Below are positions 15,179 to 39,875 of a stretch of 64,000 nt of DNA, piece after piece (the stretch's first letter is position 1; each line of letters opens with the position of its first letter). The DNA comes from Trypanosoma brucei. Lineage: Eukaryota. The notes under the pieces are model-generated. The model was not told where the DNA came from, did not search any database, and saw only the letters and a list, made by a program, of their open reading frames with translations. Both the position numbers and the translations under genes were made by a program. The stretch covers positions 1,152,001 through 1,216,000 of the forward strand of contig CP000067.1 in assembly GCA_000002445.1 (NCBI GenBank), given 5' to 3'.

Positions 15179-15179
15179 A

Positions 15180-15265: not shown

Positions 15266-16173
15266 AACTGCCTCCATCGCCTCTCCACACACATCATCAT
15301 TCATGTATCCGATACAAAAACATAAAACATCACTAGGCACAAGAGTAAATGTGTAAATAGAGCATTATAATATCATAGACTGGATGCCAGTAACAAAAAC
15401 AAAGCACACTAGCAGTCACAGTTAACATTCAACTGGCAACAGCATGGCAGACATTGTTCAGTTTCATATTCCTTGGTTGTCTAAAGGTAAAATAGAAAGA
15501 ATGGGTCTGAGGGAATATGAGGAAAGTTACAATAAGCATATGGAAACATGCAGGAAGCTATGCACAGGTATTAGATGTTGTAAATAGTTGTCGGCAGCAG
15601 TTTCATTTGAGAAGTACCTCTCACAAGCCAAAATCTCCAAAGGAGAAATGTAAAAAGGGATTGAAGCAAACACGGAAAATAAACACCAGATGATAGTTTT
15701 ACTTCATGGCAACCCCCACTTCACGGGTTTCACCTTCTTATCGTACACATCTTTAGGTGTATGAACACAACTGATAACAACACTTTAAGGATAGAGAAAG
15801 TCACATAGCAACCCAAACAAAATTAATTAATAAAATCGATTGAAAACTTAACACTGAAAAAAAAAAGATAATAAAAAACTGTAAAAACATATGTGTTTCC
15901 ATCCAATTCCACACCAAAAACAAGAAGATTTGCGATCTTCAAACACAGTTCTCAAAAGGAGAGTACCCATGTCAGAAATGGAAAGCGTCTTTATCTACAG
16001 AGATATTTTAAGCACCCACCATATGAGGAGATTATTGCGTACACAAAAAAGAAAAAAATTAATGGCCACTTTATACAAAATAAATCTAAAGAAAAGATTG
16101 CACACATGATGTAAAATAACTTATTCATTCACTTCAATAGCAAAGCGCACATATAGCAATGTTACGGGGAATA

Positions 16174-19100
16174 TTAGCTGGCAGCGCTAACATTATCCAA
16201 GTCAATCAATTGCACGCCGCTACAATCACCTTCACCGCAGAAGGAATTGGAGGATGAAGAAAGCATTATAGCAGCTGCAACCCCCCCGAGTGAGAAGAAA
16301 CTTCCGCCCCTTTCAAAGGAAGGCACACTACCAGAGGTATTTCTCGTTCCAAAATCCATAACACAACCCACCTTCGCAGCAATCCGACGAGTGACACAGC
16401 GGCAACTGGCTTCATTCCAAGCATCCATACCTGGGGGTTTCTTAACACGCCAACGCTCACAAAAAGTTGCAAGCATCTTCTGTCGCTGGGTAGCAGGGAA
16501 TGTGCCAAGCAGAGCATCAATACAACCAGCAACTTGTTGGGCAGTGGCAGTTAAACCACGTTCAGGAGATCCCGACCCACTGGTGATACTACCAGTTACA
16601 TTATCTTCTTCCTCCTCAAATTCACGGTCAAGGCGCAGAGCAGCAAAGGTACGGCCAGGTACAGCATTCAACTGGTACATTTCCACAGGCTTCGGCACAC
16701 CACGTAGCGGCACATCACCCAAAGGCGTTACATTAAGTTGCTCACGCTCTTCACCACTCAGTGACAGGTATGTTGAGCGCGTCATCAGCACCTGACCACC
16801 GTTACCAACACTCTCCGTGCGTGCTGCCATGTTGGATGTGCGTCCATAATAGTCGTAACCTTTCGTTACTTCATCATGACGAATATCACACAATCCAGTA
16901 TGAATCCCCACACGTACACGCAACCCATTCCACAGTTGCCGATAAACCTCAGGGTCCAGGCTCGCAGTTGGTGGTGTGTAATCACTGTCATCTTCCGCAC
17001 GCTTTCGTTCGAATTCACGGTAAGACTCATCAAGCTCAGTGGTCTTCCAGTCATGGTTTAGAAAATCACGTTGCAAGTCACATGCGAGTTGTGCAGCAGC
17101 GAAGGGACTTTTACACGCAATCATAAAAGAGTCTCCAACAGTTTTCACTTCGTAGCACTCATACCGTGTGATGAGGGAGCGGATCAAACGGTGATGTGTT
17201 GCCACAAGGTCAGGCATTTGCTCAGGGTGTGCTGCCCACTGCGCTGTACTGCTCTCGATGTCAGTGAATATTAATGTTACGGGGTCTGTTGGTTCCTTGG
17301 GAGCATTATTATTGTCACGGGCGTTCCGGCGTGATGCCGATACAAGTACCAGAACCGTAACAAACAGTGCCAATACAACAACGCAGCTGACTGCAATAGC
17401 AGCAATGTGTCCTCTCTTAAGTCGAAACCCTTCTGTGTCACCGTATTTCATCGAGGGTGTGACGTGAGTCACCACAGGAGACACGGAAGGATTCAGAACA
17501 CGTGACATCGACCATACAGAAATATGCGTCGCACCATAGTTCACAGCACAGTGTTTCTCTTCAAATGAAGCCCCGTTAGTACACTTGTCATCAAAAGGAC
17601 CATATCGCATATCATCAACTGTAATGACAGATTGGCTGAAGATGGCGTCTACAAGTTCCTCCGGCGTTACATGTCCCATACGTTGCAGGATATTTATCAT
17701 TGCACGTGCGGTGACATATCCAAGTAATGACAATGGCTTCCACTTCGACTCATCTCGTACAACTCTGTGGAACTCACGTACCATATCGGATTTTGTGTTC
17801 TTATCTCCCCAATGTGGCAGATTCGTTGCGAATAGCAGACGGTCAGCAAATGGCTTGTCACGGAAGGCACTCACAAGTTCATCATAGAGTAACGCAACAT
17901 CAAAGAACGGGACAAAGATACGCACATTATGGTGTTTGCCAAGGTGAGAGAGGATTATGGGGATATCATCTGAGATGAGACCTGCAACTAATACCTCACC
18001 TGCAGTCGGTAGCTTGTCTCTCAAAGTAGAACCTTCACCACTCGCAACAAAGGAGCTTAATGACGATTCAAAGAAGTCAAGTGTTTTTTGCAACACTTTC
18101 CTAACTCCTCTCGTATCACCACTACGCACAATGGCATGCATCTTTCCAGCACCATTTTGTATGATATGCTCAACTATCACGAATAGTTGTTGCTCAAGTG
18201 TTGGTGACAGGTGGATCACATTCCTTCTGGGGTTACTCAGTTGTGGTGTGAGTGTTATGGGATCGATGAATGCCATACCCTTCGTCGACAGTAACGAATC
18301 ATCCACAACACCAAACACAGCAGTTACAACTCGCTTCTCCACTTCATCATACAGAGCTGTAGAAGTGTCATGAGATTTCGAGGATAGCCAGTGTAAAAAG
18401 AATCTATCAGAGTGACCAAGTTGACCCTTTCCAACAACATAAAAGGCACCATCGTATATTGCCTCTGCAGTACGCAGTGCCTTTGGGTCATCAGTTAGTT
18501 TAAACATGATGCCACTCAATGGGGCGTACAGCTGTGACAGGTCTCTATAGCAGCGAGATGAAGTAAGAGCTAATACACCTTCCTTCATAGGGTACAGACG
18601 GAGATCCTTTCCCATCTTCTTCATGTACACCACATTCCCACCCTGATTACATAAACATGATGCACCCCGCTCACCCGCCATACCACGGCACTCACCACCA
18701 AAGTCACCAACAACAATATCATCAATTACATAACGACGTTGATTGTAAAGTGATGTAATAAATGCATCCCTGCTAGTTAGCCATTCGCGACAACTCAGTG
18801 CTTGTTTCAATACCTCTCCAGCAATCCATCCGTCAACCATCAGCTCAGCTTCAGTGTCTTGCTCGGTGAAGTTGCTTTCGTCAACATTTAGGTTAACATT
18901 CCATTGTCCAGTGCCACTCAGAATATCTTTCTTTTCCTTCAGGTACTTTGCCATATCACCCTTGAATCGTTTGATTGCATCATAGCCATCATCCTTCGCA
19001 AGTGGATTAGTCCCAGTTATTATTATCTTATCAGGCACAAACCTGTCTCTACCCAATTCCTTTTCCCACTTATTCTCAATGACATATTGGAGTGTAGAGG

Positions 19101-19908
19101 GTATGAGCAAATATCCACCTTTTGTCCTTTCATCTTCTAATGATTTCATTAGGAATTTCTTCGTATCATTGATTGGAGAGCCAAATACAATCACACCCTG
19201 AGGTCGAGTATTTGCAAACTTATTCCACTCCGCACTGAAGCTACTGTCATCCGATTCCTTACCAATTTGACTCTTCAATGCAAAAACACCGCACAGTTTG
19301 CGATCCATCCGTGTTGTCAATTCCACAGCAAGCTCATATTCATCATCACCATAAGAAACATCTTTCAAGTACATGAAACCCAGCCGATGTAACCGTAACT
19401 GAGTGATAGCATAACGGAGAAGAGCAAGCATCTCAGCAGCGGGTGATGCTGTCAGGAAGTACAGATTAGGATTCCAACTGCGTACCTTACTGGATCCTGT
19501 GAGGGGTGAGAAACTAATCACATTCTTTTCTTTGAAATATTTCAAGAGACCTAGAGTGTTTTTATCACCCACAGGTCCCAGTATAACAGGGAGTTCCTTA
19601 CCATCATGGGTTGTCATGTGTTTCCCGAGATAGTCAGCATATTTAGAATCATCCATGGGGGGAACATATACCACTTCCACATTAGCACCCGACGGCGTGT
19701 TTCCGTTGGTAATGGATGCGTTGAAGCCTGCAGTAATAGGATCATATATCTTTGCTGAAATCTTGTTACTGTATAACATGTTGTATACCTTCACCTGTAT
19801 TTTATCATTTGCAAGTGATGATGCAGTCAGCACCTGTAGTAACAGAGAAAACACTAGGTAAGTGAATGCACCATCTCTAACATACAATTCACGCATGAAG
19901 GTAACCAT
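16174..19908 (-). CDS. GRESAG4: receptor-type adenylate cyclase, ESAG4/GRESAG4 family, array copy 1 (last copy in transcription order), 1244 aa
   Basis: Architecture is N-terminal signal peptide (MVTFMRELYVRDGAFTYLVFSLLLQVLTASSLA), an extracellular domain of about 840 aa, a single TM helix (HIAAIAVSCVVVLALFVTVLVLV, nt about 17340-17412) and a class III cyclase domain (nt about 16670-17270). The cyclase domain carries metal-binding motifs LIFTDIESST and KTVGDSFMIA plus GLRVRVGIHTG...GYDYYGRTSNMAARTES. These are hallmarks of trypanosome receptor adenylate cyclases. Confidence 0.95.
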   Translation of the reverse strand: MVTFMRELYVRDGAFTYLVFSLLLQVLTASSLANDKIQVKVYNMLYSNKISAKIYDPITAGFNASITNGNTPSGANVEVVYVPPMDDSKYADYLGKHMTTHDGKELPVILGPVGDKNTLGLLKYFKEKNVISFSPLTGSSKVRSWNPNLYFLTASPAAEMLALLRYAITQLRLHRLGFMYLKDVSYGDDEYELAVELTTRMDRKLCGVFALKSQIGKESDDSSFSAEWNKFANTRPQGVIVFGSPINDTKKFLMKSLEDERTKGGYLLIPSTLQYVIENKWEKELGRDRFVPDKIIITGTNPLAKDDGYDAIKRFKGDMAKYLKEKKDILSGTGQWNVNLNVDESNFTEQDTEAELMVDGWIAGEVLKQALSCREWLTSRDAFITSLYNQRRYVIDDIVVGDFGGECRGMAGERGASCLCNQGGNVVYMKKMGKDLRLYPMKEGVLALTSSRCYRDLSQLYAPLSGIMFKLTDDPKALRTAEAIYDGAFYVVGKGQLGHSDRFFLHWLSSKSHDTSTALYDEVEKRVVTAVFGVVDDSLLSTKGMAFIDPITLTPQLSNPRRNVIHLSPTLEQQLFVIVEHIIQNGAGKMHAIVRSGDTRGVRKVLQKTLDFFESSLSSFVASGEGSTLRDKLPTAGEVLVAGLISDDIPIILSHLGKHHNVRIFVPFFDVALLYDELVSAFRDKPFADRLLFATNLPHWGDKNTKSDMVREFHRVVRDESKWKPLSLLGYVTARAMINILQRMGHVTPEELVDAIFSQSVITVDDMRYGPFDDKCTNGASFEEKHCAVNYGATHISVWSMSRVLNPSVSPVVTHVTPSMKYGDTEGFRLKRGHIAAIAVSCVVVLALFVTVLVLVSASRRNARDNNNAPKEPTDPVTLIFTDIESSTAQWAAHPEQMPDLVATHHRLIRSLITRYECYEVKTVGDSFMIACKSPFAAAQLACDLQRDFLNHDWKTTELDESYREFERKRAEDDSDYTPPTASLDPEVYRQLWNGLRVRVGIHTGLCDIRHDEVTKGYDYYGRTSNMAARTESVGNGGQVLMTRSTYLSLSGEEREQLNVTPLGDVPLRGVPKPVEMYQLNAVPGRTFAALRLDREFEEEEDNVTGSITSGSGSPERGLTATAQQVAGCIDALLGTFPATQRQKMLATFCERWRVKKPPGMDAWNEASCRCVTRRIAAKVGCVMDFGTRNTSGSVPSFERGGSFFSLGGVAAAIMLSSSSNSFCGEGDCSGVQLIDLDNVSAAS
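16670..17270 (-). other. class III nucleotidyl cyclase catalytic domain of copy 1 (approximate bounds)
   Basis: Conserved motifs run from PVTLIFTDIESSTAQWAAHPE through KTVGDSFMIACKSP to GLRVRVGIHTGLCDIRHDEVTKGYDYYGRTSNMAARTESVGNGGQVLMT. Confidence 0.8.
17340..17412 (-). other. single transmembrane helix of cyclase copy 1 (HIAAIAVSCVVVLALFVTVLVLV); equivalent segment in every copy
   Basis: The reverse complement of aaccgtaacaaacagtgccaatacaacaacgcagctgactgcaatagcagcaatgtg translates to HIAAIAVSCVVVLALFVTV. The helix is flanked by basic residues (SRRNARDNNN) on the cytosolic side. Confidence 0.8.
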
Positions 19909-19924
19909 GATACTGGTAACTCAA

Positions 19925-19995
19925 CGTAATCCAACGTGAAAACTACAAGACAAAAAGGGAATAATAACAAAGTATTGGTACAGGATTAAGAGACT
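19925..19995 (-). promoter_or_regulatory. pyrimidine tract upstream of cyclase copy 1, repeated in every unit (about 24770-24840, 29620-29690, 34485-34555, 39335-39405, 43760-43830); candidate splice-acceptor region
   Basis: The plus strand reads aaaactacaagacaaaaagggaataataacaaagtattgg, so the minus strand reads ccaatactttgttattattccctttttgtcttgtagtttt 20-90 nt upstream of each ATG. Confidence 0.45.
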
Positions 19996-21024
19996 GCATA
20001 TGTACAGATATGTTGGATTGTGACACAATAAGAGTCCATATGATAATTGTATATAAGAGTGTAGGAAAGGGAACTATTATGATGGATAGCGTTATATAAA
20101 CCATAACAGTGAGAAAGTAATTCAACATACATTCCCCTATACACACATCATTCATGTATCCGATACAAAAACGTAAAACATCACTAGGCACAAGAGTAAA
20201 TGTGTAAATAGAGCATTATAATATCATAGACTGGATGCCAGTAACAAAAACAAAGCACACTAGCAGTCACAGTTAACATTCAACTGGCAACAGCATGGCA
20301 GACATTGTTCAGTTTCATATTCCTTGGTTGTCTAAAGGTAAAATAGAAAGAATGGGTCTGAGGGAATATGAGGAAAGTTACAATAAGCATATGAAAACAT
20401 GCAGGAAGCTATGCACAGGTATTAGATGTTGCAAATAGTTGTCGGCAGCAGTTTCATTTGAGAGATACCTCTCACAAGCCAAAATCTCCAAAGGAGAAAT
20501 GTAAAAAGGGATTGAAGCAAACACGGAAAATAAACACCAGATGATAGTTTTACTTCATGGCAACCCCCACTTCACGGGTTTCACCTTCTTATCGTACACA
20601 TCTTTAGGTGTATGAACACAACTGATAACAACACATTAGAGGTAGAACCTCACTTGACCACAGCACACACAAACGGCAATTTAAGCTTATTTAACTAATA
20701 AATGTATTATTTAAAAGAGTGAGATAATCAAAAGTGGTATGGGTGCTCACATCCAATTCCACACCAAAAACAAGAAGATTTGCGATCTTCAAACACAGCT
20801 ATCAAAAGGAGAGTACCCATGTCAGAAATAGAAAGCGTCTTTATCACAAAGATATTTAAATCACCCACCATATGAGGAGATTCTTGTATTTACAAAAGTA
20901 AAAAAAAAATTAATGGCCACTTTATACAAAATAAATCTAAAGAAAAGATTGCACACATGATGTAAAACAACTTATTCATTCACTTCAATAGCAAAGCGCA
21001 CATACAGCAATGTTACGGGGAATA

Positions 21025-24000
21025 TTAGCTGGCAGCGCTAACATTATGAGGGTCAATCAATTGCACGGTACCGCGCCGTACCTCAACGCAGAAGGAACTT
21101 GAGGATGAAGCAAGCATTATAGCAGCTGCTCCTCCAGGTGAGAAGAGACTTCCGCCCCTTTCAAAAGAAGCCACACTACCAGAGGTATTTCTCGTTCCAA
21201 AATCCATAACACAACCCACCTTCGCAGCAATCCGACGAGTGACACAGCGGCAACTGGCTTCATTCCAAGCATCCATACCTGGGGGTTTCTTAACACGCCA
21301 ACGCTCACAAAAAGTTGCAAGCATCTTCTGTCGCTGGGTAGCAGGGAATGTGCCAAGCAGAGCATCAATACAACCAGCAACTTGTTGGGCAGTGGCATTT
21401 AAACCATGTGCAAGAGAGCTCGACTCACTGGTGATACTACCAGTTCCAATATCTTCTTCCTCCTCAAATTCACGGTCAAGGCGCAGAGCAGCAAAGGTAC
21501 GGCCAGGTACAGCATTCAACTGGTACATTTCCACAGGCTTCGGCACACCACGTAGCGGCACATCACCCAAAGGCGTTACATTAAGTTGCTCACGCTCTTC
21601 ACCACTCAGTGACAGGTATGTTGAGCGCGTCATCAGCACCTGACCACCGTTACCAACACTCTCCGTGCGTGCTGCCATGTTGGATGTGCGTCCATAATAG
21701 TCGTAACCTTTCGTTACTTCATCATGACGAATATCACACAATCCAGTATGAATCCCCACACGTACACGCAACCCATTCCACAGTTGCCGATAAACCTCAG
21801 GGTCCAGGCTCGCAGTTGGTGGTGTGTAATCACTGTCATCTTCCGCACGCTTTCGTTCGAATTCACGGTAAGACTCATCAAGCTCAGTGGTCTTCCAGTC
21901 ATGGTTTAGAAAATCACGTTGCAAGTCACATGCGAGTTGTGCAGCAGCGAAGGGACTTTTACACGCAATCATAAAAGAGTCTCCAACAGTTTTCACTTCG
22001 TAGCACTCATACCGTGTGATGAGGGAGCGGATCAAACGGTGATGTGTTGCCACAAGGTCAGGCATTTGCTCAGGGTGTGCTGCCCACTGCGCTGTACTGC
22101 TCTCGATGTCAGTGAATATTAATGTTACGGGGTCTGTTGGTTCCTTGGGAGCATTATTATTGTCACGGGCGTTCCGGCGTGATGCCGATACAAGTACCAG
22201 AACCGTAACAAACAGTGCCAATACAACAACGCAGCTGACTGCAATAGCAGCAATGTGTCCTCTCTTAAGTCGAAACCCTTCTGTGTCACCGTATTTCATC
22301 GAGGGTGTGACGTGAGTCACCACAGGAGACACGGAAGGATTCAGAACACGTGACATCGACCATACAGAAATATGCGTCGCACCATAGTTCACAGCACAGT
22401 GTTTCTCTTCAAATGAAGCCCCGTTAGTACACTTGTCATCAAAAGGACCATATCGCATATCATCAACTGTAATGACAGATTGGCTGAAGATGGCGTCTAC
22501 AAGTTCCTCCGGCGTTACATGTCCCATACGTTGCAGGATATTTATCATTGCACGTGCGGTGACATATCCAAGTAATGACAATGGCTTCCACTTCGACTCA
22601 TCTCGTACAACTCTGTGGAACTCACGTACCAAATCGGATTTTGTGTTCTTATCTCCCCAATGTGGCAGATTCGTTGCGAATAGCAGACGGTCAGCAAATG
22701 GCTTGTTACGGAAGGCACTCACAAGTTCATCATAGAGTAACGCAACATCAAAGAACGGGACAAAGATACGCACATTATGGTGTTTGCCAAGGTGAGAGAG
22801 GATTATGGGGATATCATCTGAGATGAGACCTGCAACCAACACCTCACCTGCAGTCGGTAGCTTGTCTCTCAAAGTAGAACCTTCACCACTCGCAACAAAG
22901 GAGCTTAATGACGCGTTAAAATATTTAAGAGTCTTCTGCAACACTTTCCTAACTCCTCTCGTATCACCACTACGCACAATGGCATGCATCTTTCCTGCAC
23001 CATTTTGTATGATATGCTCAACTATCACGAATAGTTGTTGCTCAAGTGTTGGTGACAGGTGGATCACATTCCTTCTGGGGTTACTCAGTTGTGGTGTGAG
23101 TGTTATAGGATCGATGAATGCCATACCCTTCGTGGACAGTAACGAATCATCCACAACACCAAACACAGCAGTTACAACTCGCTTCTCCACTTCATCATAC
23201 AGAGCTGTAGAAGTGTCATGAGATTTCGAGGATAGCCAGTGTAAAAAGAATCTATCAGAGTGACCAAGTTGACCCTTTCCAACAACATAAAAGGCACCAT
23301 CGTATATTGCCTCTGCAGTACGCAGTGCCTTTGGGTCATCAGTTAGTTTAAACATGATGCCACTCAATGGGGCGTACAGCTGTGACAGGTCTCTATAGCA
23401 GCGAGATGAAGTAAGAGCTAATACACCTTCCTTCATAGGGTACAGACGGAGATCCTTTCCCATCTTCTTATGTACACCACATTCCCACCCTGATTACATA
23501 AACATGATGCACCCCGCTCACCCGCCATACCACGGCACTCACCACCAAAGTCACCAACAACAATATCATCAATTACATAACGACGTTGATTGTAAAGTGA
23601 TGTAATAAATGCATCCCTGCTAGTTAGCCATTCGCGACAACTCAGTGCTTGTTTCAATACCTCTCCAGCAATCCATCCACTCACCATCAGCTCACCTTCA
23701 GTGTCTTGCTCGGTGAAGTTGCTTTCGTCAACATTTAAGTTAACATTCCAATTATCTTTCGAAAAATTATTTCCGTGTACCCTTAGGAACTTTGCCATAT
23801 CATCCCTAAAACGTTTGATTGCATCATAACCATCATCCTTCGCAAGTGGATTAGTCCCAGTTATTATTATCTTATCAGGCACAAACCTGTCTCTACCCAA
23901 TTCCTTTGCCCACTTATTCTTGATGACATATTGGAGTGTAGAGGGTATGAGCAAATATCCACCTTTTGTCCTGCGGTCATCTAATGATTTCATTAGAAAT

Positions 24001-24752
24001 CTTTTCGTATCAGGGATTGGAGAGCCAAATACAATCACACCCTGAGGTCGAGTATTTGCAAACTTATTCCACTCTGCACTGAAGCTACTGTCATCCGATT
24101 CCTTACCAATTTGACTCTTCAATGCAAAAACACCGCACAGTTTGCGATCCATCCGTGTTGTCAATTCCACAGCAAGCTCATATTCATCATCACCATAAGA
24201 AACATCTTTCAAGTACATGAAACCCAGCCGATGTAACCGTAACTGAGTGATAGCATAACGGAGAAGAGCAAGCATCTCAGCAGCGGGTGATGCTGTCAGG
24301 AAGTACAGATTAGGATTCCAACTGCGTACCTTACTGGATCCTGTGAAGGGTGAGAAACTAATCACATTCTTTTCTTTGAAATATTTCAAGAGACCTAGAG
24401 TGTTTTTATCACCCACAGGTCCCAGTATAACAGGGAGTTCCTTACCATCATGGGTTGTCATGTGTTTCCCGATATAGTCAGCATATTTAGAATCATCCAT
24501 GGGCGGAACATATACCACTTCCACATTAGCACCTGACGGCGGGTTTCCGTTGGTAATGGATGCGTTGAAGCCTGCAATAATAGGATCATATATCTTTGCT
24601 GAAATCTTGTTACTGTATAACATGTTGTATACCTTCACCTGTATTTTATCATTTGCAAGTGATGATGCAGTCAGCACCTGTAGTAACAGAGAAAACACTA
24701 GGTAAGTGAATGCGCCATCTCTAACATACAATTCACGCATGAAGGTAACCAT
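21025..24752 (-). pseudogene. GRESAG4: receptor-type adenylate cyclase GRESAG4-like, array copy 2, interrupted by a 1-bp frameshift (N-terminal 439-aa ORF 23433-24752 and C-terminal 812-aa ORF 21025-23463)
   Basis: At 23463-23470 the plus strand reads cttcttatgtac where all other copies read cttcttcatgtac, so one C is missing. Upstream of this point the protein ends ...GGNVVYIRRWERISVCTL*. The remaining 812 codons (MGKDLRLYPM...) are intact but in the -1 frame. Everything else is co-linear with the other copies. It is either a genuine pseudogene or an assembly or sequencing error in a collapsed repeat. Confidence 0.8.
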
Positions 24753-25871: not shown

Positions 25872-28800
25872 TTAGCTGGCAGCGCTAACATTTTCCTGTT
25901 CAATCAATTGCACGGTACCACAGCGTCCCTCAACGCAGGAGGAACTTGAGGATGAAGAAAGCGTTACGGCAGCTGCTCCTCGGGGAGAGAAGAGACTTCC
26001 GCCCCTTTCAAAAGATCCACCGCTACCAGAGGTATTTCTCGTTCCAAAATCCATAACACAACCCACCTTCGCAGCAATCCGACGAGTGACACAGCGGCAA
26101 CTGGCTTCATTCCAAGCATCCATACCTGGGGGTTTCTTAACACGCCAACGCTCACAAAAAGTTGCAAGCATCTTCTGTCGCTGGGTAGCAGGGAATGTGC
26201 CAAGCAGAGCATCAATACAACCAGCAACTTGTTGGGCAGTGGCATTTAAACCATGTGCGAAAGATCCCGACTCACTGGTGATACTACCAGTTACATTATC
26301 TTCTTCCTCCTCAGCTTCACGGTCAAGGCGCAGAGCAGCAAAGGTACGGCCAGGTACAGCATTCAACTGGTACATTTCCACAGGCTTCGGCACACCACGT
26401 AGCGGCACATCACCCAAAGGCGTTACATTAAGTTGCTCACGCTCTTCACCACTCAGTGACAGGTATGTTGAGCGCGTCATCAGCACCTGACCACCGTTAC
26501 CAACACTCTCCGTGCGTGCTGCCATGTTGGATGTGCGTCCATAATAGTCGTAACCTTTCGTTACTTCATCATGACGAATATCACACAATCCAGTATGAAT
26601 CCCCACACGTACACGCAACCCATTCCACAGTTGCCGATAAACCTCAGGGTCCAGGCTCGCAGTTGGTGGTGTGTAATCACTGTCATCTTCCGCACGCTTT
26701 CGTTCGAATTCACGGTAAGACTCATCAAGCTCAGTGGTCTTCCAGTCATGGTTTAGAAAATCACGTTGCAAGTCACATGCGAGTTGTGCAGCAGCGAAGG
26801 GACTTTTACACGCAATCATAAAAGAGTCTCCAACAGTTTTCACTTCGTAGCACTCATACCGTGTGATGAGGGAGCGGATCAAACGGTGATGTGTTGCCAC
26901 AAGGTCAGGCATTTGCTCAGGGTGTGCTGCCCACTGCGCTGTACTGCTCTCGATATCAGTGAATATTAATGTTACGGGGTCTGTTGGTTCCTTGGGAGCA
27001 TTATTATTGTCACGGGCGTTCCGGCGTGATGATCTTATGACAAGTACCAGAACCGTAACAAACAGTGCCAATACAACAACGCAGCTGACTGCAATAGCAG
27101 CAATGTGTCCTCTCTTAAGTCGAAACCCTTCTGTGTCACCGTATTTCATCGAGGGTGTGACGTGAGTCACCACAGGAGACACGGAAGGATTCAGGACACG
27201 TGACATCGACCATACAGAAATATGCGTCGCACCATAGTTCACAGCACACTGCTTCTTACCGAACAAACTTTTTTTAGTACACTTGTCATCAAAAGGACCA
27301 TATCGCATATCATCAACTGTAATGACAGATTGGCTGAAGATGGCGTCTACAAGCTCCTCCGGTGTTACATGTCCCATACGTTGCAGGACATTTATCATTG
27401 CACGTGCGGCGACATATCCAAGTAATGACAATGGCTTCCACTTCGACTCATCTCGTACAACTCTGTGGAACTCACGTACCATATCGGATTTTGTGTTCTT
27501 ATCTCCCCAATGTGGCAGATTCGTTGCGAATAGCAGACGGTCAGCAAATGGCTTGTCACGGAAGGCACTCACAAGTTCATCATAGAGTAACGCAACATCA
27601 AAGAACGGGACGAAGATACGCACATTATGGTGTTTGCCAAGGTGAGAGAGGATTATGGGGATATCATCTGAGATGAGACCTGCAACTAATACCTCACCTG
27701 CAGTCGGTAGCTTGTCTCTCAAAGTAGAACCTTCACCACTCGCAACAAAGGAGCTTAATGACGCGTTAAAATATTTAAGAGTCTTCTGCAACACTTTCCT
27801 AACTCCTCTCGTATCACCACTACGCACAATGGCATGCATCTTTCCTGCACCATTTTGTATGATATGCTCAACTATCACGAATAGTTGTTGCTCAAGTGTT
27901 GGTGACAGGTGGATCACATTCCTTCTGGGGTTACTCAGTTGTGGTGTGAGTGTTATAGGATCGATGAATGCCATACCCTTCGTCGACAGTAACGAATCAT
28001 CCACAACACCAAACACAGCAGTTACAACTCGCTTCTCCACTTCATCATACAGAGCTGTAGAAGTGTCATGAGATTTCGAGGATAGCCAGTGTAAAAAGAA
28101 TCTATCAGAGTGACCAAGTTGACCCTTTCCAACAACATAAAAGGCACCATCGTATATTGCCTCTGCAGTACGCAGTGCCTTTGGGTCATCAGTTAGTTTA
28201 AACATGATGCCACTCAATGGGGCGTACAGCTGTGACAGGTCTCGATAGCAGCGAGATGAAGTAAGAGCTAATACACCTTCCTTCATAGGGTACAGACGGA
28301 GATCCTTTCCCATCTTCTTCATGTACACCACATTCCCACCCTGATTACATAAACATGATGCACCCCGCTCACCCGCCATACCACGGCACTCACCACCAAA
28401 GTCACCAACAACAATATCATCAATTACATAACGACGTTGATTGTAAAGTGATGTAATAAATGCATCCCTGCTAGTTAGCCATTCGCGACAACTCAGTGCT
28501 TGTTTCAATACCTCTCCAGCAATCCATCCGTCAACCATCAGCTCAGCTTCAGTGTCTTGCTCGGTGAAGTTGCTTTCGTCAACATTTAAGTTAACATTCC
28601 AATTATCTTTCGAAAAATTATTTCTGTTAAGTTTCAGGTACTTTGCCATATCATCCTTGAATCGTTTGATTGCATCATAGCCATCATCCTTCGCAAGTGG
28701 ATTAGTCCCAGTTATTATTATCTTATCAGGCACAAACCTGTCTCTACCCAATTCCTTTGCCCACTTGTTCTTGATGACATATTGGAGTGTAGAGGGTATG

Positions 28801-29603
28801 AGCAAATATCCACCTTTTGTCCTTTCATCTTCTAATGATTTCATTAGGAATTTCTTCGTATCAGGGATTGGAGAGCCAAATACAATCACACCCTGAGGTC
28901 GAGCATTTGCAAACTTATTCCACTCCGCACTGAAGCTACTGTCATCCGATTCCTTACCAATTTGACTCTTCAATGCAAAAACACCGCACAGTTTGCGATC
29001 CATCCGTGTTGTCAATTCCACAGCAAGCTTATATTCATCATCACCATAAGAAACATCTTTCAAGTACATGAAACCCAGCCGATGTAACCGTAACTGAGTG
29101 ATAGCATAACGGAGAAGAGCAAGCATCTCAGCAGCGGGTGATGCTGTCAGGAAGTACAGATTAGGATTCCAACTGCGTACCTTACTGGATCCTGTGAAGG
29201 GTGAGAAACTAGTCACATTCTTTTCTTTGAAATATTTCAAGAGACCTAGAGTGTTTTTATCACCCACAGGTCCCAGTATAACAGGGAGTTCCTTACCATC
29301 ATTGGTTGTCATGTGTTTCCCGAGATAGTCAGCATATTTAGAATCATCCATGGGCGGAACATATACCACTTCCACATTAGCACCTGACGGCGGGTTTCCG
29401 TTGGTAATGGATGCGTTGAAGCCTGCAATAATAGGATCATATATCTTTGCTGAAATCTTGTTACTGTATAACATGTTGTATACCTTCACCTGTATTTTAT
29501 CATTTGCAAGTGATGATGCAGTCAGCACCTGTAGTAACAGAGAAAACACTAGGTAAGTGACTGCGCCATCTCTAACATACAATTCACGCATGAAGGTAAC
29601 CAT
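25872..29603 (-). CDS. GRESAG4: receptor-type adenylate cyclase GRESAG4-like, array copy 3, 1243 aa
   Basis: Full-length and co-linear with copy 1. It has the same signal peptide, TM helix and cyclase motifs. It differs in patches, for example KYLKLNRNNFSKDNW, KCTKKSLFGKKQC and LDREAEEEEDN. Confidence 0.95.
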   Translation of the reverse strand: MVTFMRELYVRDGAVTYLVFSLLLQVLTASSLANDKIQVKVYNMLYSNKISAKIYDPIIAGFNASITNGNPPSGANVEVVYVPPMDDSKYADYLGKHMTTNDGKELPVILGPVGDKNTLGLLKYFKEKNVTSFSPFTGSSKVRSWNPNLYFLTASPAAEMLALLRYAITQLRLHRLGFMYLKDVSYGDDEYKLAVELTTRMDRKLCGVFALKSQIGKESDDSSFSAEWNKFANARPQGVIVFGSPIPDTKKFLMKSLEDERTKGGYLLIPSTLQYVIKNKWAKELGRDRFVPDKIIITGTNPLAKDDGYDAIKRFKDDMAKYLKLNRNNFSKDNWNVNLNVDESNFTEQDTEAELMVDGWIAGEVLKQALSCREWLTSRDAFITSLYNQRRYVIDDIVVGDFGGECRGMAGERGASCLCNQGGNVVYMKKMGKDLRLYPMKEGVLALTSSRCYRDLSQLYAPLSGIMFKLTDDPKALRTAEAIYDGAFYVVGKGQLGHSDRFFLHWLSSKSHDTSTALYDEVEKRVVTAVFGVVDDSLLSTKGMAFIDPITLTPQLSNPRRNVIHLSPTLEQQLFVIVEHIIQNGAGKMHAIVRSGDTRGVRKVLQKTLKYFNASLSSFVASGEGSTLRDKLPTAGEVLVAGLISDDIPIILSHLGKHHNVRIFVPFFDVALLYDELVSAFRDKPFADRLLFATNLPHWGDKNTKSDMVREFHRVVRDESKWKPLSLLGYVAARAMINVLQRMGHVTPEELVDAIFSQSVITVDDMRYGPFDDKCTKKSLFGKKQCAVNYGATHISVWSMSRVLNPSVSPVVTHVTPSMKYGDTEGFRLKRGHIAAIAVSCVVVLALFVTVLVLVIRSSRRNARDNNNAPKEPTDPVTLIFTDIESSTAQWAAHPEQMPDLVATHHRLIRSLITRYECYEVKTVGDSFMIACKSPFAAAQLACDLQRDFLNHDWKTTELDESYREFERKRAEDDSDYTPPTASLDPEVYRQLWNGLRVRVGIHTGLCDIRHDEVTKGYDYYGRTSNMAARTESVGNGGQVLMTRSTYLSLSGEEREQLNVTPLGDVPLRGVPKPVEMYQLNAVPGRTFAALRLDREAEEEEDNVTGSITSESGSFAHGLNATAQQVAGCIDALLGTFPATQRQKMLATFCERWRVKKPPGMDAWNEASCRCVTRRIAAKVGCVMDFGTRNTSGSGGSFERGGSLFSPRGAAAVTLSSSSSSSCVEGRCGTVQLIEQENVSAAS

Positions 29604-30722: not shown

Positions 30723-33700
30723 TTAGCTGGCAGCGCTAACATTTTCCTGTTCAATCAATTGCACGGTACCACAGCGTCCCTCAACGCAGGAGGAACTTGA
30801 GGATGAAGCAAGCATTATAGCAGCTGCTCCTCCAGGTGAGAAGAGACTTCCGCCCCTTTCAAAAGAAGCCACACTACCAGAGGTATTTCTCGTTCCAAAA
30901 TCCATAACACAACCCACCTTCGCAGCAATCCGACGAGTGACACAGCGGCAACTGGCTTCATTCCAAGCATCCATACCTGGGGGTTTCTTAACACGCCAAC
31001 GCTCACAAAAAGTTGCAAGCATCTTCTGTCGCTGGGTAGCAGGGAATGTGCCAAGCAGAGCATCAATGCAACCAGCAACTTGTTGGGCAGTGGCAGTTAA
31101 ACCACGTTCAGGAGATCCCGACCCACTGGTGATACTACCAGTTACATTATCTTCTTCCTCCTCAAATTCACGGTCAAGGCGCAGAGCAGCAAAGGTACGG
31201 CCAGGTACAGCATTCAACTGGTACATTTCCACAGGCTTCGGCACACCACGTAGCGGCACATCACCCAAAGGCGTTACATTAATTTGCTCACGCTCTTTAC
31301 CACTCAGTGACAGGTATGTTGAGCGCGTCATCAGCACCTGACCACCGTTACCAACACTCTCCGTGCGTGCTGCCATGTTGGATGTGCGTCCATAATAGTC
31401 GTAACCTTTCGTTACTTCATCATGACGAATATCACACAATCCAGTATGAATCCCCACACGTACACGCAACCCATTCCACAGTTGCCGATAAACCTCAGGG
31501 TCCAGGCTCGCAGTTGGTGGTGTGTAATCACTGTCATCTTCCGCACGCTTTCGTTCGAATTCACGGTAAGACTCATCAAGCTCAGTGGTCTTCCAGTCAT
31601 GGTTTAGAAAATCACGTTGCAAGTCACATGCGAGTTGTGCAGCAGCGAAGGGACTTTTACACGCAATCATAAAAGAGTCTCCAACAGTTTTCACTTCGTA
31701 GCACTCATACCGTGTGATGAGGGAGCGGATCAAACGGTGATGTGTTGCCACAAGGTCAGGCATTTGCTCAGGGTGTGCTGCCCACTGCGCTGTACTGCTC
31801 TCGATATCAGTGAATATTAATGTTACGGGGTCTGTTGGTTCCTTGGGAGCATTATTATTGTCACGGGCGTTCCGGCGTGATGATCTTATGACAAGTACCA
31901 GAACCGTAACAAACAGTGCCAATACAACAACGCAGCTGACTGCTACAGCAGCAATATGCTTATATATTAGTCGAATCCATTTTGGTTCATCATACTTCAT
32001 CGAGGGTGTGACGTGAGTCACCACAGGAGACACGGAAGGATTCAGAACACGTGACATCGACCATACAGAAATATGCGTCGCACCATAGTTCACAGCACAG
32101 TGTTTCTCTTCAAATGAAGCTCCGTTAGTACACTTGTCATCAAAAGGACCATATCGCATATCATCAACTGTAATGACAGATTGGCTGAAGATGGCGTCTA
32201 CAAGCTCCTCCGGCGTTACATGTCCCATACGTTGCAGGACATTTATCATTGCACGTGCGGTGACATATCCAAGTAATGACAATGGCTTCCACTTCGACTC
32301 ATCTCGTACAACTCTGTGGAACTCACGTACCAAATCGGATTCCGTGTTCTTATCTCCCCAATGTGGCAGATTCGTTGCGAATAGCAGACGGTCAGCAAAT
32401 GGCTTGTCACGGAAGGCACTCACAAGTTCATCATAGAGTAACGCAACATCAAAGAACGGGACAAAGATACGCACATTATGGTGTTTGCCAAGGTGAGAGA
32501 GGATTATGGGGATATCATCTGAGATGAGACCTGCAACTAATACCTCACCTGCAGTCGGTAGCTTGTCTCTCAAAGTAGAACCTTCACCACTCGCAACAAA
32601 GGAGCTTAATGACGCAAAAAAGTAGTCAAGTGTTTTGTTCAGCATCTCTCCAATATCTTTCGTATCACCACTACGCACAATGGCATGCATCTTTCCAGCA
32701 CCATTTTGTATGATATGCTCAACTATCACGAATAGTTGTTGCTCAAGTGTTGGTGACAGGTGGATCACATTCCTTCTGGGGTTACTCAGTTGTGGTGTGA
32801 GTGTTATGGGATCGATGAATGCCATACCCTTCGTCGACAGTAACGAATCATCCACAACACCAAACACAGCAGTTACAACTCGCTTCTCCACTTCATCATA
32901 CAGAGCTGTAGAAGTATCATGAGATTTCGAGGATAGCCAGTGTAAAAAGAATCTATCAGAGTGACCAAGTTGACCCTTTCCAACAACATAAAAGGCACCA
33001 TCGTATATTGCCTCTGCAGTACGCAGTGCCTTTGGGTCATCAGTTAGTTTAAACATGATGCCACTCAATGGGGCGTACAGCTGTGACAGGTCTCTATAGC
33101 AGCGAGATGAAGTAAGAGCTAATACACCTTCCTTCATAGGGTACAGACGGAGATCCTTTCCCATCTTCTTCATGTACACCACATTCCCACCCTGATTACA
33201 TAAACATGATGCACCCCGCTCACCCGCCATACCACGGCACTCACCACCAAAGTCACCAACAACAATATCATCAATTACATAACGACGTTGATTGTAAAGT
33301 GATGTAATAAATGCATCCCTGCTAGTCAGCCATTCGCGACAACTCAGTGCTTGTTTCAATACCTCTCCAGCAATCCATCCGTCAACCATCAGCTCAGCTT
33401 CAGTGTCTTGCTCGGTGAAGTTGCTTTCGTCAACATTTAGGTTAACATTCCATTGTCCAGTGCCACTCAGAATATCTTTCTTTTCCTTCAGGTACTTTGC
33501 CATATCACCCTTGAATCGTTTGATTGCATCATAGCCATCATCCTTCGCAAGTGGATTAGTCCCAGTTATTATTATCTTATCAGGCACAAACCTGTCTCTA
33601 CCCAATTCCTTTTCCCACTTATTCTCAATGACATATTGGAGTGTAGAGGGTATGAGCAAATATCCACCTTTTGTCCTTTCATCTTCTAATGATTTCATTA

Positions 33701-34466
33701 GGAATTTCTTCGTATCATTGATTGGAGAGCCAAATACAATCACACCCTGAGGTCGAGTATTTGCAAACTTATCCCACTCCGCACTGAAGCTACTGTCATC
33801 CGATTCCTTACCAATTTGACTCTTCAATGCAAAAACACCGCACAGTTTGCGATCCATCCGTGTTGTCAATTCCACAGCAAGCTTATATTCATCATCACCA
33901 TAAGAAACATCTTTCAAGTACATGAAACCCAGCCGATGTAACCGTAACTGAGTGATAGCATAACGGAGAAGAGCAAGCATCTCAGCAGCGGGTGATGCTG
34001 TCAGGAAGTACAGATTAGGATTCCAACTGCGTACCTTACTGGATCCTGTGAAGGGTGAGAAACTAATCACATTCTTTTCTTTGAAATATTTCAAGAGACC
34101 TAGAGTGTTTTTATCACCCACAGGTCCCAGTATAACAGGGAGTTCCTCACCATTATTGTCGTTGCTAAAGGACGTTTCGCTATTTAAATGACCAACATAA
34201 TCTGAATCATTCTTCGGTGGAACATATACCACTTCCACATTAGCACCTGACGGCGGGTTCCCGTTGGTAATGGATGCGTTGAAGCCTGCAATAATAGGAT
34301 CATATATCTTTGCTGAAATCTTGTTACTGTATAACATGTTGTATACCTTCACCTGTATTTTATCATTTGCAAGTGATGATGCAGTCAGCACCTGTAGTAA
34401 CAGAGAAAACACTAGGTAAGTGACTGCGCCATCTCTAACATACAATTCACGCATGAAGGTAACCAT
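30723..34466 (-). CDS. GRESAG4: receptor-type adenylate cyclase GRESAG4-like, array copy 4, 1247 aa
   Basis: Full-length paralogue. It carries a unique patch with a 4-aa insertion near the N-terminus (VPPKNDSDYVGHLNSETSFSNDNNGEELPV), and the patches TKDIGEMLNKTLDYFFAS and PSMKYDEPKWIRLIYKHIAAVAVS next to the TM helix. Confidence 0.95.
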   Translation of the reverse strand: MVTFMRELYVRDGAVTYLVFSLLLQVLTASSLANDKIQVKVYNMLYSNKISAKIYDPIIAGFNASITNGNPPSGANVEVVYVPPKNDSDYVGHLNSETSFSNDNNGEELPVILGPVGDKNTLGLLKYFKEKNVISFSPFTGSSKVRSWNPNLYFLTASPAAEMLALLRYAITQLRLHRLGFMYLKDVSYGDDEYKLAVELTTRMDRKLCGVFALKSQIGKESDDSSFSAEWDKFANTRPQGVIVFGSPINDTKKFLMKSLEDERTKGGYLLIPSTLQYVIENKWEKELGRDRFVPDKIIITGTNPLAKDDGYDAIKRFKGDMAKYLKEKKDILSGTGQWNVNLNVDESNFTEQDTEAELMVDGWIAGEVLKQALSCREWLTSRDAFITSLYNQRRYVIDDIVVGDFGGECRGMAGERGASCLCNQGGNVVYMKKMGKDLRLYPMKEGVLALTSSRCYRDLSQLYAPLSGIMFKLTDDPKALRTAEAIYDGAFYVVGKGQLGHSDRFFLHWLSSKSHDTSTALYDEVEKRVVTAVFGVVDDSLLSTKGMAFIDPITLTPQLSNPRRNVIHLSPTLEQQLFVIVEHIIQNGAGKMHAIVRSGDTKDIGEMLNKTLDYFFASLSSFVASGEGSTLRDKLPTAGEVLVAGLISDDIPIILSHLGKHHNVRIFVPFFDVALLYDELVSAFRDKPFADRLLFATNLPHWGDKNTESDLVREFHRVVRDESKWKPLSLLGYVTARAMINVLQRMGHVTPEELVDAIFSQSVITVDDMRYGPFDDKCTNGASFEEKHCAVNYGATHISVWSMSRVLNPSVSPVVTHVTPSMKYDEPKWIRLIYKHIAAVAVSCVVVLALFVTVLVLVIRSSRRNARDNNNAPKEPTDPVTLIFTDIESSTAQWAAHPEQMPDLVATHHRLIRSLITRYECYEVKTVGDSFMIACKSPFAAAQLACDLQRDFLNHDWKTTELDESYREFERKRAEDDSDYTPPTASLDPEVYRQLWNGLRVRVGIHTGLCDIRHDEVTKGYDYYGRTSNMAARTESVGNGGQVLMTRSTYLSLSGKEREQINVTPLGDVPLRGVPKPVEMYQLNAVPGRTFAALRLDREFEEEEDNVTGSITSGSGSPERGLTATAQQVAGCIDALLGTFPATQRQKMLATFCERWRVKKPPGMDAWNEASCRCVTRRIAAKVGCVMDFGTRNTSGSVASFERGGSLFSPGGAAAIMLASSSSSSCVEGRCGTVQLIEQENVSAAS

Positions 34467-39317: not shown

Positions 39318-39875
39318 GATACTGGTAACTCAACGTAATCCAACGTGAAAACTACAAGACAAAAAGGGAATAATAACAAAGTATTGGTACAGGATTAAGA
39401 GACTGCATATGTACAGATATGTTGGATTGTGACACAATAAGAGTCCATATGATAATTGTATATAAGAGTGTAGGAAAGGGAACTATTATAATGGATAGCG
39501 TTATATAAACCATAACAGTGAGAAAGTAATTCAACACACATTTCCCTATACACACATCATTCATGTATCCGATACAAAAACATAAAACATCACTAGGCAC
39601 AAGAGTAAATGTGTAAATAGAGCATTATAATATCATAGACTGGATGCCAGTAACAAAAACAAAGCACACTAGCAGTCACAGTTAACATTCAACTGGCAAC
39701 AGCATGGGAGACATTGTTCAGTTTCATATTCCTTGGTTGTCTAAAGGTAAAAGAGAAAGAATGGGTGTGAGGGAATATGAGGAAAGTTACAATAAGCATA
39801 TGGAAACATGCAGGAAGCGATGCACAGGTATTAGATGTTGCTAGTATTTGTCTCCAACAATATGATGTCGATATT

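What the first reader, a model, noticed from the sequence alone, without database searches (positions are those of the whole stretch)
18900..19660. Patchwork (mosaic) variation between array copies concentrated in short ectodomain segments, a gene-conversion signature
The copies are about 95-99% identical overall, but differences cluster in a few short patches whose variants are shared in different combinations.
- Patch A (copy 1 nt about 19585-19660, aa 84-108): PPMDDSKYADYLGKHMTTHDGKELPV in copies 1, 2, 3 and 5; PPKNDSDYVGHLNSETSFSNDNNGEELPV in copy 4; PPMDDSKYADFLNNETSFGENNKISI in copy 6.
- Patch B (nt about 18900-18972, aa 313-336): KRFKGDMAKYLKEKKDILSGTGQW in copies 1, 4 and 7; K..DDMAKYLKLNRNNFSKDNW in copies 3 and 5; RDDMAKFLRVHGNNFSKDNW in copy 2; RGELANFLKVNGNNFSKDNWNVTLNANENNF in copy 6.
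- Patch C (about aa 615-630): TRGVRKVLQKTLDFFESS in copy 1; ...KYFNAS in copies 2 and 3; TKDIGEMLNKTLDYFFAS in copy 4; TKDIGEMLNKTLDFFESS in copy 6; ...DIFNAS in copies 5 and 7.
- Patch D (next to the TM helix): PSMKYGDTEGFRLKRGH in most copies; PSMKYDEPKWIRLIYKH in copy 4; PLMMDGYAKWFRLKRGH in copy 6; PAMLKNENSGPTMKTGH in copy 7.
The reshuffled combinations are what segmental gene conversion between paralogues would produce. The clustering in surface-exposed ectodomain segments suggests diversifying selection on a ligand- or host-facing surface.
Basis: seen in the sequence. Interest (0 to 1): 0.65.

Follow-up and report, generated by a model that had tools for sequence, protein, structure and literature searches.

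The report
Mosaic trypanosome adenylate-cyclase gene array
Seven tandem copies of a Trypanosoma brucei surface receptor gene are nearly identical except for short, very divergent patches that recombination has shuffled between copies; the pattern is real, but it has already been published for this exact gene array.

Summary
The window is T. brucei brucei TREU927 chromosome 4. It carries seven tandem GRESAG4 receptor-type adenylate cyclase genes on the minus strand; six translate exactly to GenBank proteins AAZ11032-37.

Seven short patches cover 13.6% of the ectodomain columns but hold 65% of its variable columns. Recombination signal is strong: PHI p<1/2000, Rmin 26 in the ectodomain, Sawyer test p<0.001, and nearest neighbours that switch along the gene. 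Seventeen copies from three subspecies show 17 different patch combinations, built from 2-7 alleles per patch.

Diversifying selection is not shown. Synonymous change in the patches is about 9-fold higher than outside them, and local dN/dS is about 0.6. Alleles differ by about 26% at nucleotide level. Within an allele, divergence between subspecies (1.55%) equals the background (1.35%).

The best reading is that the whole repeat unit is homogenised, while old, discrete alleles persist in loop regions and are shuffled between copies.

The finding is real but already known.

The parts
16174..19908 (-). Copy 1, GRESAG4 receptor-type adenylate cyclase, 1244 aa (AAZ11032)
   Evidence: ORF. Pfam PF25495, PF25493, PF13458 and PF00211. 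Catalytic domain matches 1fx4/1fx2 at E about 1e-122. Exact match to the TREU927 protein.
21025..24752 (-). Copy 2, interrupted by a 1-nt deletion between window 23470 and 23469 (the G of an ATG codon); probable pseudogene
   Evidence: Split ORFs. Single-column gap in the alignment. No matching protein entry.
25872..29603 (-). Copy 3, 1243 aa (AAZ11033); carries the private patch E allele KKSLFGKKQ at 27249-27275
30723..34466 (-). Copy 4, 1247 aa (AAZ11034). Distinct alleles at A (34137-34220), C (32610-32660) and D (31956-32003); the C and D alleles are like those of the chromosome 7 sister array
35586..39317 (-). Copy 5, 1243 aa (AAZ11035)
39876..43742 (-). Copy 6, 1288 aa (AAZ11036). Distinct alleles at A (43422-43496), B (42717-42800) and D (41244-41291); alternative C-terminal tail
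44301..48116 (-). Copy 7, 1271 aa (AAZ11037), first in the direction of transcription. Unique N-terminus, patch F (47046-47060), patch D (45666-45713), catalytic-domain patch (44991-45035) and alternative C-terminal tail
19588..19662 (-). Patch A in copy 1 (aa 83-107): loop, short helix, loop after strand 2 of the first PBP-like lobe. Three allele classes; indel site
   Evidence: 62% of columns variable. Structure from the AlphaFold model.
18880..18966 (-). Patch B in copy 1 (aa 315-343): end of a helix plus a low-confidence loop. Five alleles in this genome, seven across three genomes; indel site
18787..18801 (-). Patch F position in copy 1 (aa 370-374); the variant allele is in copy 7 only
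18601..18612 (-). Patch G position in copy 1 (aa 433-436): beta-hairpin turn. Copies 5 and 6 carry EEDH instead of GKDL
18061..18111 (-). Patch C in copy 1 (aa 600-616): a confidently modelled helix of the second PBP-like module. Two sub-patches recombine independently
17551..17577 (-). Patch E position in copy 1 (aa 778-786): low-confidence loop between two cysteines
17407..17454 (-). Patch D in copy 1 (aa 819-834): juxtamembrane linker just before the TM helix. Four alleles; 75% of columns variable
19909..21024 (-). Inter-copy spacer (1116-1119 nt between copies 1-5), 95-99% identical among units
39318..39875 (-). Short 558-nt spacer between copies 6 and 5, 100% identical to the spacer at 43743-44300

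Best explanation
This is the seven-copy GRESAG4 receptor-type adenylate cyclase array of T. brucei chromosome 4. Each protein has a signal peptide, two periplasmic-binding-protein-like modules, one TM helix and a class III cyclase domain.

Shown here: the whole repeat unit of about 4.85 kb, both coding sequence and spacer, is kept at about 95-100% identity. Short islands of 12-90 nt are the exception. They lie mostly in loops of the ectodomain and in the juxtamembrane linker, and they carry discrete alleles that differ by about 26% at nucleotide level.

Shown here: recombination between copies has placed these alleles in different combinations in every copy examined, with breakpoints between patches and sometimes inside them.

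Inferred: the homogenising process is inter-copy gene conversion or unequal crossing-over, as in other T. brucei arrays.

Inferred and unresolved: the islands persist because conversion through them is rare. One possible cause is that strongly mismatched heteroduplex is rejected. The other is that selection removes copies that lose a distinct receptor or antigenic surface.
For: Identity of the locus: Pfam and PDB matches, six exact TREU927 proteins on a 1,590,432-bp contig, and an LIVBP/Venus-flytrap fold for the ectodomain.

Homogeneity: spacers are 95-100% identical. Non-patch ectodomain pS is 0.039.

Clustering of variation.

Recombination:
- PHI p<1/2000, 51% of informative pairs incompatible and Rmin 26 in the ectodomain.
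- Sawyer SSCF of 427,810 against a permutation mean of 82,693.
- Nearest-neighbour switches along the gene.
- 17 of 17 copies in three genomes have different patch combinations.
- GenBank clone Q9NHA3 has a breakpoint inside patch A.

Old, discrete alleles:
- Synonymous changes per site are 0.86-0.98 in patches and 0.10 outside.
- Between-allele divergence is 25.6%. Within-allele divergence across subspecies is 1.55%, against a background of 1.35%.
- One allele per patch matches the chromosome 7 sister array at the background level: C 0.82 and D 0.88, against 0.87 for non-patch sequence.

Literature: Jackson et al. 2010, Table 2, array 28, reports PHI p<0.001 and 11 LRT breakpoints. Jackson 2007 proposes that less conserved regions escape conversion.
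Against: No nucleotide sequence of an outgroup paralogue could be fetched. Allele ages therefore rest on protein comparison and saturated synonymous counts.

Within-genome divergence outside the patches (median 1.40%) is no lower than between subspecies (1.35%). Homogenisation is therefore not visible on the subspecies time scale; it is inferred from the contrast with the patches and with the chromosome 7 array.

Several alleles have no relative among 78 family representatives, so their origin is unexplained. These include D of copies 1, 6 and 7, E of copy 3 and F of copy 7.

Allele classes were defined with a 4% cut-off, which caps within-class divergence.

The gambiense assembly has a gap and frameshifts in this array.
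Confidence: 0.75

Rival explanations
1. The patches were created in place by repeated amino-acid-changing point mutations under diversifying selection on a ligand- or host-facing surface. Recombination only reshuffles the products.
For: Emes & Yang 2008 inferred omega2 = 4.8 for 6.6% of sites in this cluster, at residues in patches A, B, C and D. Patches lie in loops and family-wide variable segments (entropy 2.2-3.1 against 1.81). Local dN/dS is higher than outside (0.6 against 0.3).
Against: Synonymous change is raised about 9-fold in the same patches, and local dN/dS is 0.59-0.64, even though the patches were chosen for amino-acid differences. PAML site models assume one dS per gene and are known to be misled by recombination; this is general knowledge, and Emes & Yang themselves cite Anisimova 2003. 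Alleles have not diverged faster than the background since the subspecies split. Many family-wide variable segments, such as aa 46-60 and 436-525, are invariant in the array.
Confidence: 0.1
2. The patch alleles were imported recently by short-tract ectopic gene conversion from diverged GRESAG4/ESAG4 genes or pseudogenes elsewhere. Candidates are the chromosome 7 array and subtelomeric copies.
For: The copy 4 alleles at C and D, and the copy 4/6 alleles at A and B, resemble the chromosome 7 paralogues P0003 and P0096 much more than the majority alleles do. P0089 from T. b. gambiense looks like a hybrid of the chromosome 4 and chromosome 7 types.
Against: Identity of those alleles to chromosome 7 (0.50-0.88) is no higher than the background 0.87, as expected for retained ancestral sequence rather than recent transfer. 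The other alleles have no donor among 78 family representatives; the best matches score 0.33-0.60 of the self score. Jackson 2007 found ectopic conversion to be rare in T. brucei arrays. Unannotated pseudogenes could not be searched here.
Confidence: 0.13
3. The mosaic is an assembly artefact: chimeric joining of reads from near-identical repeats.
For: The repeats are 95-98% identical. The gambiense assembly of the same array has an N gap and frameshifts.
Against: The same alleles occur in three independent assemblies and in a separately cloned gene, AAF69135. Patches are dense enough (up to 75% variable columns) to anchor reads. Allele combinations b4~g3, b6~g5 and b7~g7 are largely reproduced between subspecies.
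Confidence: 0.02

Closest known systems
T. brucei tandem array 28 (sample identifier Tb927.4.4470) as analysed by Jackson 2007 (BMC Evol Biol 7:54) and Jackson et al. 2010 (PLoS Negl Trop Dis 4:e658)
   Same: This is the same locus: chromosome 4, seven GRESAG4 copies. Those papers report sequence mosaics, PHI p<0.001, 11 LRT and at least 4 GARD breakpoints, and five isoforms shared with T. b. gambiense. My PHI, Rmin and cross-subspecies results agree.
   Different: Nothing essential differs. I add a patch-by-patch allele table, local dS and dN, comparison with the chromosome 7 sister array, and a structure model.
[quoted passage not shown]
   Same: Their selected sites are G95, H97, H104, G106, E328, S334, T336, G337, Q338, F615, E617, T828 and R835. 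These match residue for residue the copy 1 sequence in my alignment numbering and fall in patches A, B, C and D. They also mapped the ectodomain to leucine-binding protein, as my fold search does.
   Different: They concluded adaptive evolution (omega2 = 4.8). With dS measured locally, the same patches give dN/dS of about 0.6 and a 9-fold excess of synonymous change. The omega>1 signal may therefore reflect recombination and older coalescence.
Islands of divergence in paralogues undergoing concerted evolution (Teshima & Innan model; mosaic MHC and immunoglobulin genes). From general knowledge.
   Same: A homogenised background with short peaks of divergence, at silent sites as well, and alleles exchanged between copies.
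   Different: No selected function or ligand is known for the patches. Ligands of trypanosome receptor cyclases are still unidentified (Durante et al. 2020).
VSG mosaic formation by segmental gene conversion in T. brucei
   Same: The organism is the same. Short-tract conversion between related surface-protein genes produces mosaics.
   Different: No silent archive or expression-site mechanism is evident. Alleles are few (2-7 per patch), stable across subspecies and encoded in an ordinary polycistronic chromosome-core array.

Membership tests
Trypanosomatid receptor-type adenylate cyclase (ESAG4/GRESAG4) | Class III cyclase catalytic domain | tested here: met
   PF00211, E = 8.6e-43. Residues 865-1095 match 1fx4 and 1fx2 at E = 2e-123 and 8e-122.
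Trypanosomatid receptor-type adenylate cyclase (ESAG4/GRESAG4) | Large N-terminal extracellular region with a periplasmic-binding-protein-like fold | tested here: met
   PF25493, PF25495 and PF13458. AlphaFold model with pLDDT 83.9. Foldseek hits to LIVBP and Venus-flytrap domains, probability 1.00.
Trypanosomatid receptor-type adenylate cyclase (ESAG4/GRESAG4) | A single transmembrane helix between the ectodomain and the cyclase domain | tested here: met
   Hydrophobic stretch IAAIAVSCVVVLALFVTVLVLV. It is modelled as a helix, model residues 802-829. No dedicated TM predictor was run.
Trypanosomatid receptor-type adenylate cyclase (ESAG4/GRESAG4) | Identity with annotated family members | tested here: met
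Trypanosomatid receptor-type adenylate cyclase (ESAG4/GRESAG4) | Adenylate cyclase activity and flagellar surface location | not testable with these tools
   Requires experiment.
Tandem array with inter-copy gene conversion (mosaic paralogues) | Head-to-tail repeats homogeneous in both coding and non-coding sequence | tested here: met
   CDS identity is 96-98% for copies 1-5. Spacers are 95-100% identical.
Tandem array with inter-copy gene conversion (mosaic paralogues) | Phylogenetically incompatible sites, with compatibility decaying with distance | tested here: met
   PHI observed 0.19 against 0.51, p<1/2000. In the ectodomain, 3284 of 6441 pairs are incompatible and Rmin is 26.
Tandem array with inter-copy gene conversion (mosaic paralogues) | Shared fragments longer than chance (Sawyer/GENECONV criterion) | tested here: met
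   SSCF and maximum condensed fragment both exceed all 1000 permutations.
Tandem array with inter-copy gene conversion (mosaic paralogues) | Copies within a genome more alike than orthologues in another taxon (cladistic criterion for concerted evolution) | tested here: inconclusive
   Not met between subspecies: within-genome median 1.40% against cross-subspecies 1.35%. All seven copies are equidistant (0.87 identity) from the chromosome 7 array outside the patches, which fits. No other species carries the array.
Diversifying (positive) selection on a receptor surface | dN/dS above 1 in the variable segments | tested here: not met
   dN/dS is 0.59 (NG86, all pairs) and 0.62-0.64 (tree counts). 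Every single patch lies between 0.34 and 0.75.
Diversifying (positive) selection on a receptor surface | Variable sites on the exposed or ligand-binding surface | tested here: inconclusive
   Patches B, E and D coincide with pLDDT<50 loops, A is loop-helix-loop and C is a helix. No coordinates were available to compute exposure or distance to the cleft.
Diversifying (positive) selection on a receptor surface | Long-lived alleles shared across taxa (balancing-selection signature) | tested here: met
   Identical or near-identical alleles occur in T. b. brucei, T. b. gambiense and T. b. equiperdum. Recent common ancestry of the subspecies would give the same result.
VSG-type segmental conversion from a silent archive | Identifiable donor sequences outside the expressed locus | tested here: not met
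   No donor was found among 78 family representatives for the derived alleles. Genome DNA and pseudogenes could not be searched.

The most novel reading that the evidence does not exclude
The patches form a combinatorial specificity or antigenic code. A handful of ancient alleles at seven or more surface loops are kept by balancing selection and re-dealt among array copies by short-tract conversion, possibly also drawing on unannotated subtelomeric GRESAG4/ESAG4 pseudogenes. Each strain would then express a different repertoire of receptor cyclases, an MHC-like or VSG-like diversity system in a signalling receptor. The evidence does not exclude this. Alleles are old, discrete, shared across subspecies and differently combined in all 17 copies examined, and several alleles have no known source.
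Probability: 0.12. Interest if true: 0.5.

Novelty: already known. Interest (0 to 1): 0.18.

Why it matters
Receptor-type adenylate cyclases are the largest family of candidate environmental sensors on the trypanosome surface, and their ligands are still unidentified. How their ectodomains vary bears on host sensing and immune modulation.

For this array, both the mosaic structure and the concentration of variation in the ectodomain are already published. The finding adds no new biology.

The one useful refinement is methodological. The published inference of positive selection at these sites is probably confounded by recombination, because synonymous divergence is raised just as strongly in the same patches.

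Tried and rejected
- DNA of the chromosome 7 sister paralogues (P0003, P0096) was not on record. There was therefore no nucleotide outgroup, and dating and polarity rest on protein comparison.
- A donor search for each patch allele among all 78 family representatives found only the chromosome 7 proteins for one allele per patch. It found nothing convincing for the others.
- The collections searchable for DNA here hold viral, metagenome, bacterial, archaeal, phage, plasmid and E. coli sequence. They were not used, because no trypanosome genome can be queried for pseudogene donors.
- I tested the idea that the patches are simply the least constrained segments of the family. They are more variable than average (MWU p = 9e-10), but many equally variable family segments are invariant in the array. 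Relaxed constraint alone does not explain the pattern.
- tRNA, Rfam and tandem-repeat scans of the whole window found nothing.
- The structure tool returns no coordinates, so solvent accessibility and distance to the binding cleft could not be computed.
- The Salmon 2018 review does not mention this array.
- PAML, GARD and RDP are not installed. I used my own PHI, four-gamete, Sawyer and Nei-Gojobori implementations instead.


Full report
**What the window is**

All large ORFs lie on the minus strand. Seven ORFs of about 1240-1290 aa repeat every 4.3-4.9 kb between 16174 and 48116.

Copy 1 has two adenylate-cyclase-specific periplasmic-binding-protein-like domains (PF25495, PF25493), a general PF13458 match and a class III cyclase domain, PF00211. 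Its residues 865-1095 match the crystallised catalytic domains of T. brucei GRESAG4.3 and GRESAG4.1 (1fx4, 1fx2) at E of about 1e-122.

[quoted passage not shown] Six of the seven translations are exact matches to AAZ11032-AAZ11037. The window is therefore T. b. brucei TREU927 chromosome 4, in a polycistronic unit. It is flanked by a vacuolar H+-pyrophosphatase (3027-5507) and an ABC transporter (57090-62492).

Copy 2 has a single-base deletion at 23469/23470 and no protein entry.

**Checking the observation**

A nucleotide alignment of the seven coding sequences shows long invariant stretches broken by dense clusters of differences.

Coordinates in copy 1 are:
- A: 19588-19662
- B: 18880-18966
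- D: 17407-17454

Three further ectodomain patches exist (E, F, G). There is also an indel next to the TM helix, a patch in the catalytic domain of copy 7, and two different C-terminal tails.

The seven patches cover 13.6% of ectodomain columns and hold 65% of the variable columns. The index of dispersion is 8.57, against at most 1.43 in 5000 permutations.

**Is it a mosaic?**

In the ectodomain, 3284 of 6441 pairs of informative sites are incompatible with a single tree. PHI is 0.19 against a permutation mean of 0.51 (p<1/2000), and at least 26 recombination events are needed. The result holds for copies 1-5 alone.

Sawyer's condensed-fragment statistics exceed all 1000 permutations. The closest relative of each copy changes along the gene. 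For example, copy 1 is closest to copy 4 over nt 331-1794, to copy 6 in the second half of patch C, and to copy 2 from nt 1851 to 3290.

I retrieved the orthologous arrays of T. b. gambiense DAL972 and T. b. equiperdum. Each patch has only 2-7 alleles, yet all 17 copies carry different combinations. A separately cloned gene, AAF69135, has another combination with a breakpoint inside patch A. This independent recurrence also rules out assembly chimeras as the main cause.

**Selection or history?**

Nei-Gojobori counts give pS = 0.30 and pN = 0.20 in the patches (dN/dS 0.59). The rest of the ectodomain gives pS = 0.039 and pN = 0.012 (dN/dS 0.31).

Counting changes on minimum spanning trees gives 0.86-0.98 synonymous changes per synonymous site in the patches, against 0.10 outside. 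No individual patch has a ratio above 0.75. This includes C, D, E and F, which have no indels, so alignment error is not the cause.

Patch alleles differ by 25.6% at nucleotide level. The same allele in different subspecies differs by 1.55%, no more than the non-patch background of 1.35%.

The patches are therefore old, discrete alleles. They are not sites of continuing amino-acid turnover.

**Origin of the alleles**

The closest paralogues outside the array are two chromosome 7 genes, P0003 and P0096 (84% identity over the full length to copy 1; 87% in the non-patch ectodomain). For each patch, one allele resembles the chromosome 7 sequence at about that background level: copy 4's C at 0.82, copy 4's D at 0.88, and the majority E and F alleles at about 0.8. 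The alternative alleles are only 0.1-0.47 identical.

So some majority alleles, such as C and D of copy 1, are the odd ones out. No convincing donor for them exists among 78 family representatives. Retention of ancestral alleles fits better than recent import. Unannotated pseudogenes could not be searched, and the chromosome 7 DNA was not retrievable.

**Structure**

An AlphaFold model of residues 31-860 (pLDDT 83.9) has the expected two PBP-like modules and a TM helix. It matches leucine-binding proteins and Venus-flytrap receptor domains.
- Patches B, E and D coincide with three of the five segments with pLDDT below 50.
- Patch A is loop-helix-loop of moderate confidence.
- Patch G is a hairpin turn.
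- Patch C is a confident helix.

The patches are more variable than average across the whole family, and A, B and E are indel sites. However, many other family-variable segments are invariant within the array. Loop location is supported. A ligand-facing position could not be tested.

**Most likely mechanism**

The whole unit, including the 95-100% identical spacers, is homogenised by recombination between copies. Short, strongly diverged islands are rarely converted through, so they persist as alleles that recombination deals into new combinations.

Two causes could keep the islands. One is rejection of mismatched heteroduplex. The other is selection against loss of distinct surfaces. These data do not separate them. 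Raised silent divergence around a selected difference is expected under the second cause as well (general knowledge of the Teshima-Innan model).

**Comparison with the literature**

Jackson (2007) analysed T. brucei tandem arrays, GRESAG4 arrays among them. That paper described concerted evolution with partial gene conversion, and suggested that less conserved regions escape conversion and diverge.

Jackson et al. (2010), Table 2, lists array 28: 'Adenylate cyclase, GRESAG4, Tb927.4.4470', chromosome 4, seven copies in each subspecies, five shared isoforms, PHI p<0.001, 11 LRT breakpoints and at least 4 GARD breakpoints.

Emes & Yang (2008) reported positive selection in a receptor-cyclase cluster whose selected sites are G95, H97, H104, G106, E285, E328, S334, T336, G337, Q338, D362, F615, E617, T828 and R835. 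These match copy 1 residue for residue in my alignment numbering; all but E285 and D362 lie in patches A-D. They also mapped the ectodomain to leucine-binding protein.

My only addition is that the omega>1 inference is probably confounded, because local dS is raised as much as dN.

**Verdict**

The feature is real and the observation accurate. The gene-conversion reading is supported and the diversifying-selection reading is not demonstrated. The finding is already known, so interest is low.

Noticed in passing
window 23469-23470 (copy 2, 21025-24752): Copy 2 lacks one base, the G of an ATG codon at CDS nt 1284. This splits it into two ORFs. It is the only copy without a matching GenBank protein, so it is probably a pseudogene, or possibly a sequencing error.
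   Followed up: partly
window 39876-40350 and 44301-44800 (3' ends of copies 6 and 7); spacers 39318-39875 and 43743-44300: Copies 6 and 7 have a different and longer C-terminal tail from about aa 1100 onwards. Their spacers are 558 nt and 100% identical to each other. Copies 1-5 have spacers of 1116-1119 nt.
   Followed up: partly
window 47990-48116 and upstream 48117-49300: Copy 7 has a different signal peptide (MLKLLLLPLLFHTTASAAQ...), and its upstream flank is unrelated to the inter-copy spacers (about 42% identity). The 5' boundary of the repeat therefore lies inside the first 110 nt or so of the coding sequence.
   Followed up: partly
window 44991-45035 (copy 7); equivalent 16735-16779 in copy 1: There is a patch inside the catalytic domain. 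Copy 7 reads LAAYHALSTL, which is close to the family consensus. Copies 1-6 read RSTYLSLSGE or RSTYLSLSGK, so here the majority allele is the derived one.
   Followed up: partly
L001 1621-5304 (T. b. gambiense, P0002): The gambiense copy at the position of copy 7 has copy 7's N-terminus and patches F and D. Its C-terminal tail is the copy 1-5 type. The two tail types have therefore been exchanged between subspecies.
   Followed up: partly
P0089 (AEX08457, T. b. gambiense 'ESAG4', 1083 aa): This sequence looks like a hybrid. Its first two thirds are the chromosome 4 array type. From about aa 740, including patch D and the TM helix, it is like the chromosome 7 type. It is either an ectopic recombinant or a PCR chimera.
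   Followed up: no
window 17329-17345 (copy 1) and equivalents: There is a 3-nt indel with flanking substitutions just after the TM helix. Copies 1 and 2 read LV-SAS and copies 3-7 read LVIRSS. In gambiense and equiperdum it is combined with other patch alleles.
   Followed up: partly
window 48117-51923: A 3.8-kb stretch between copy 7 and the next large ORF has no long ORF. It has the lowest G+C in the window (0.386) and the only positive GC skew in the window (48001-50000). No tRNA, Rfam family or tandem repeat was found there.
   Followed up: partly
L001 about 8282-8383, 14429-18156 and 19274-23013: The T. b. gambiense DAL972 assembly of this array has a run of N inside one copy. Two further copies have frameshifts and are labelled 'low quality protein' at NCBI. 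Its copy-by-copy combinations should be treated with caution.
   Followed up: no
P0018: A protein annotated 'receptor-type adenylate cyclase, putative [Schistosoma mansoni]' on a 20-kb contig is 50% identical to copy 1. Its domain set is the full set typical of trypanosome receptor cyclases. It is probably trypanosomatid contamination of that assembly.
   Followed up: no
window 9944-15178 and 51924-54767: Two large minus-strand ORFs (1744 aa and 947 aa) flank the array and have no significant Pfam domain. The first has only a sub-threshold DUF7623 hit. A 1736-aa counterpart sits at the same position in T. b. gambiense (L002 14744-19954).
   Followed up: no
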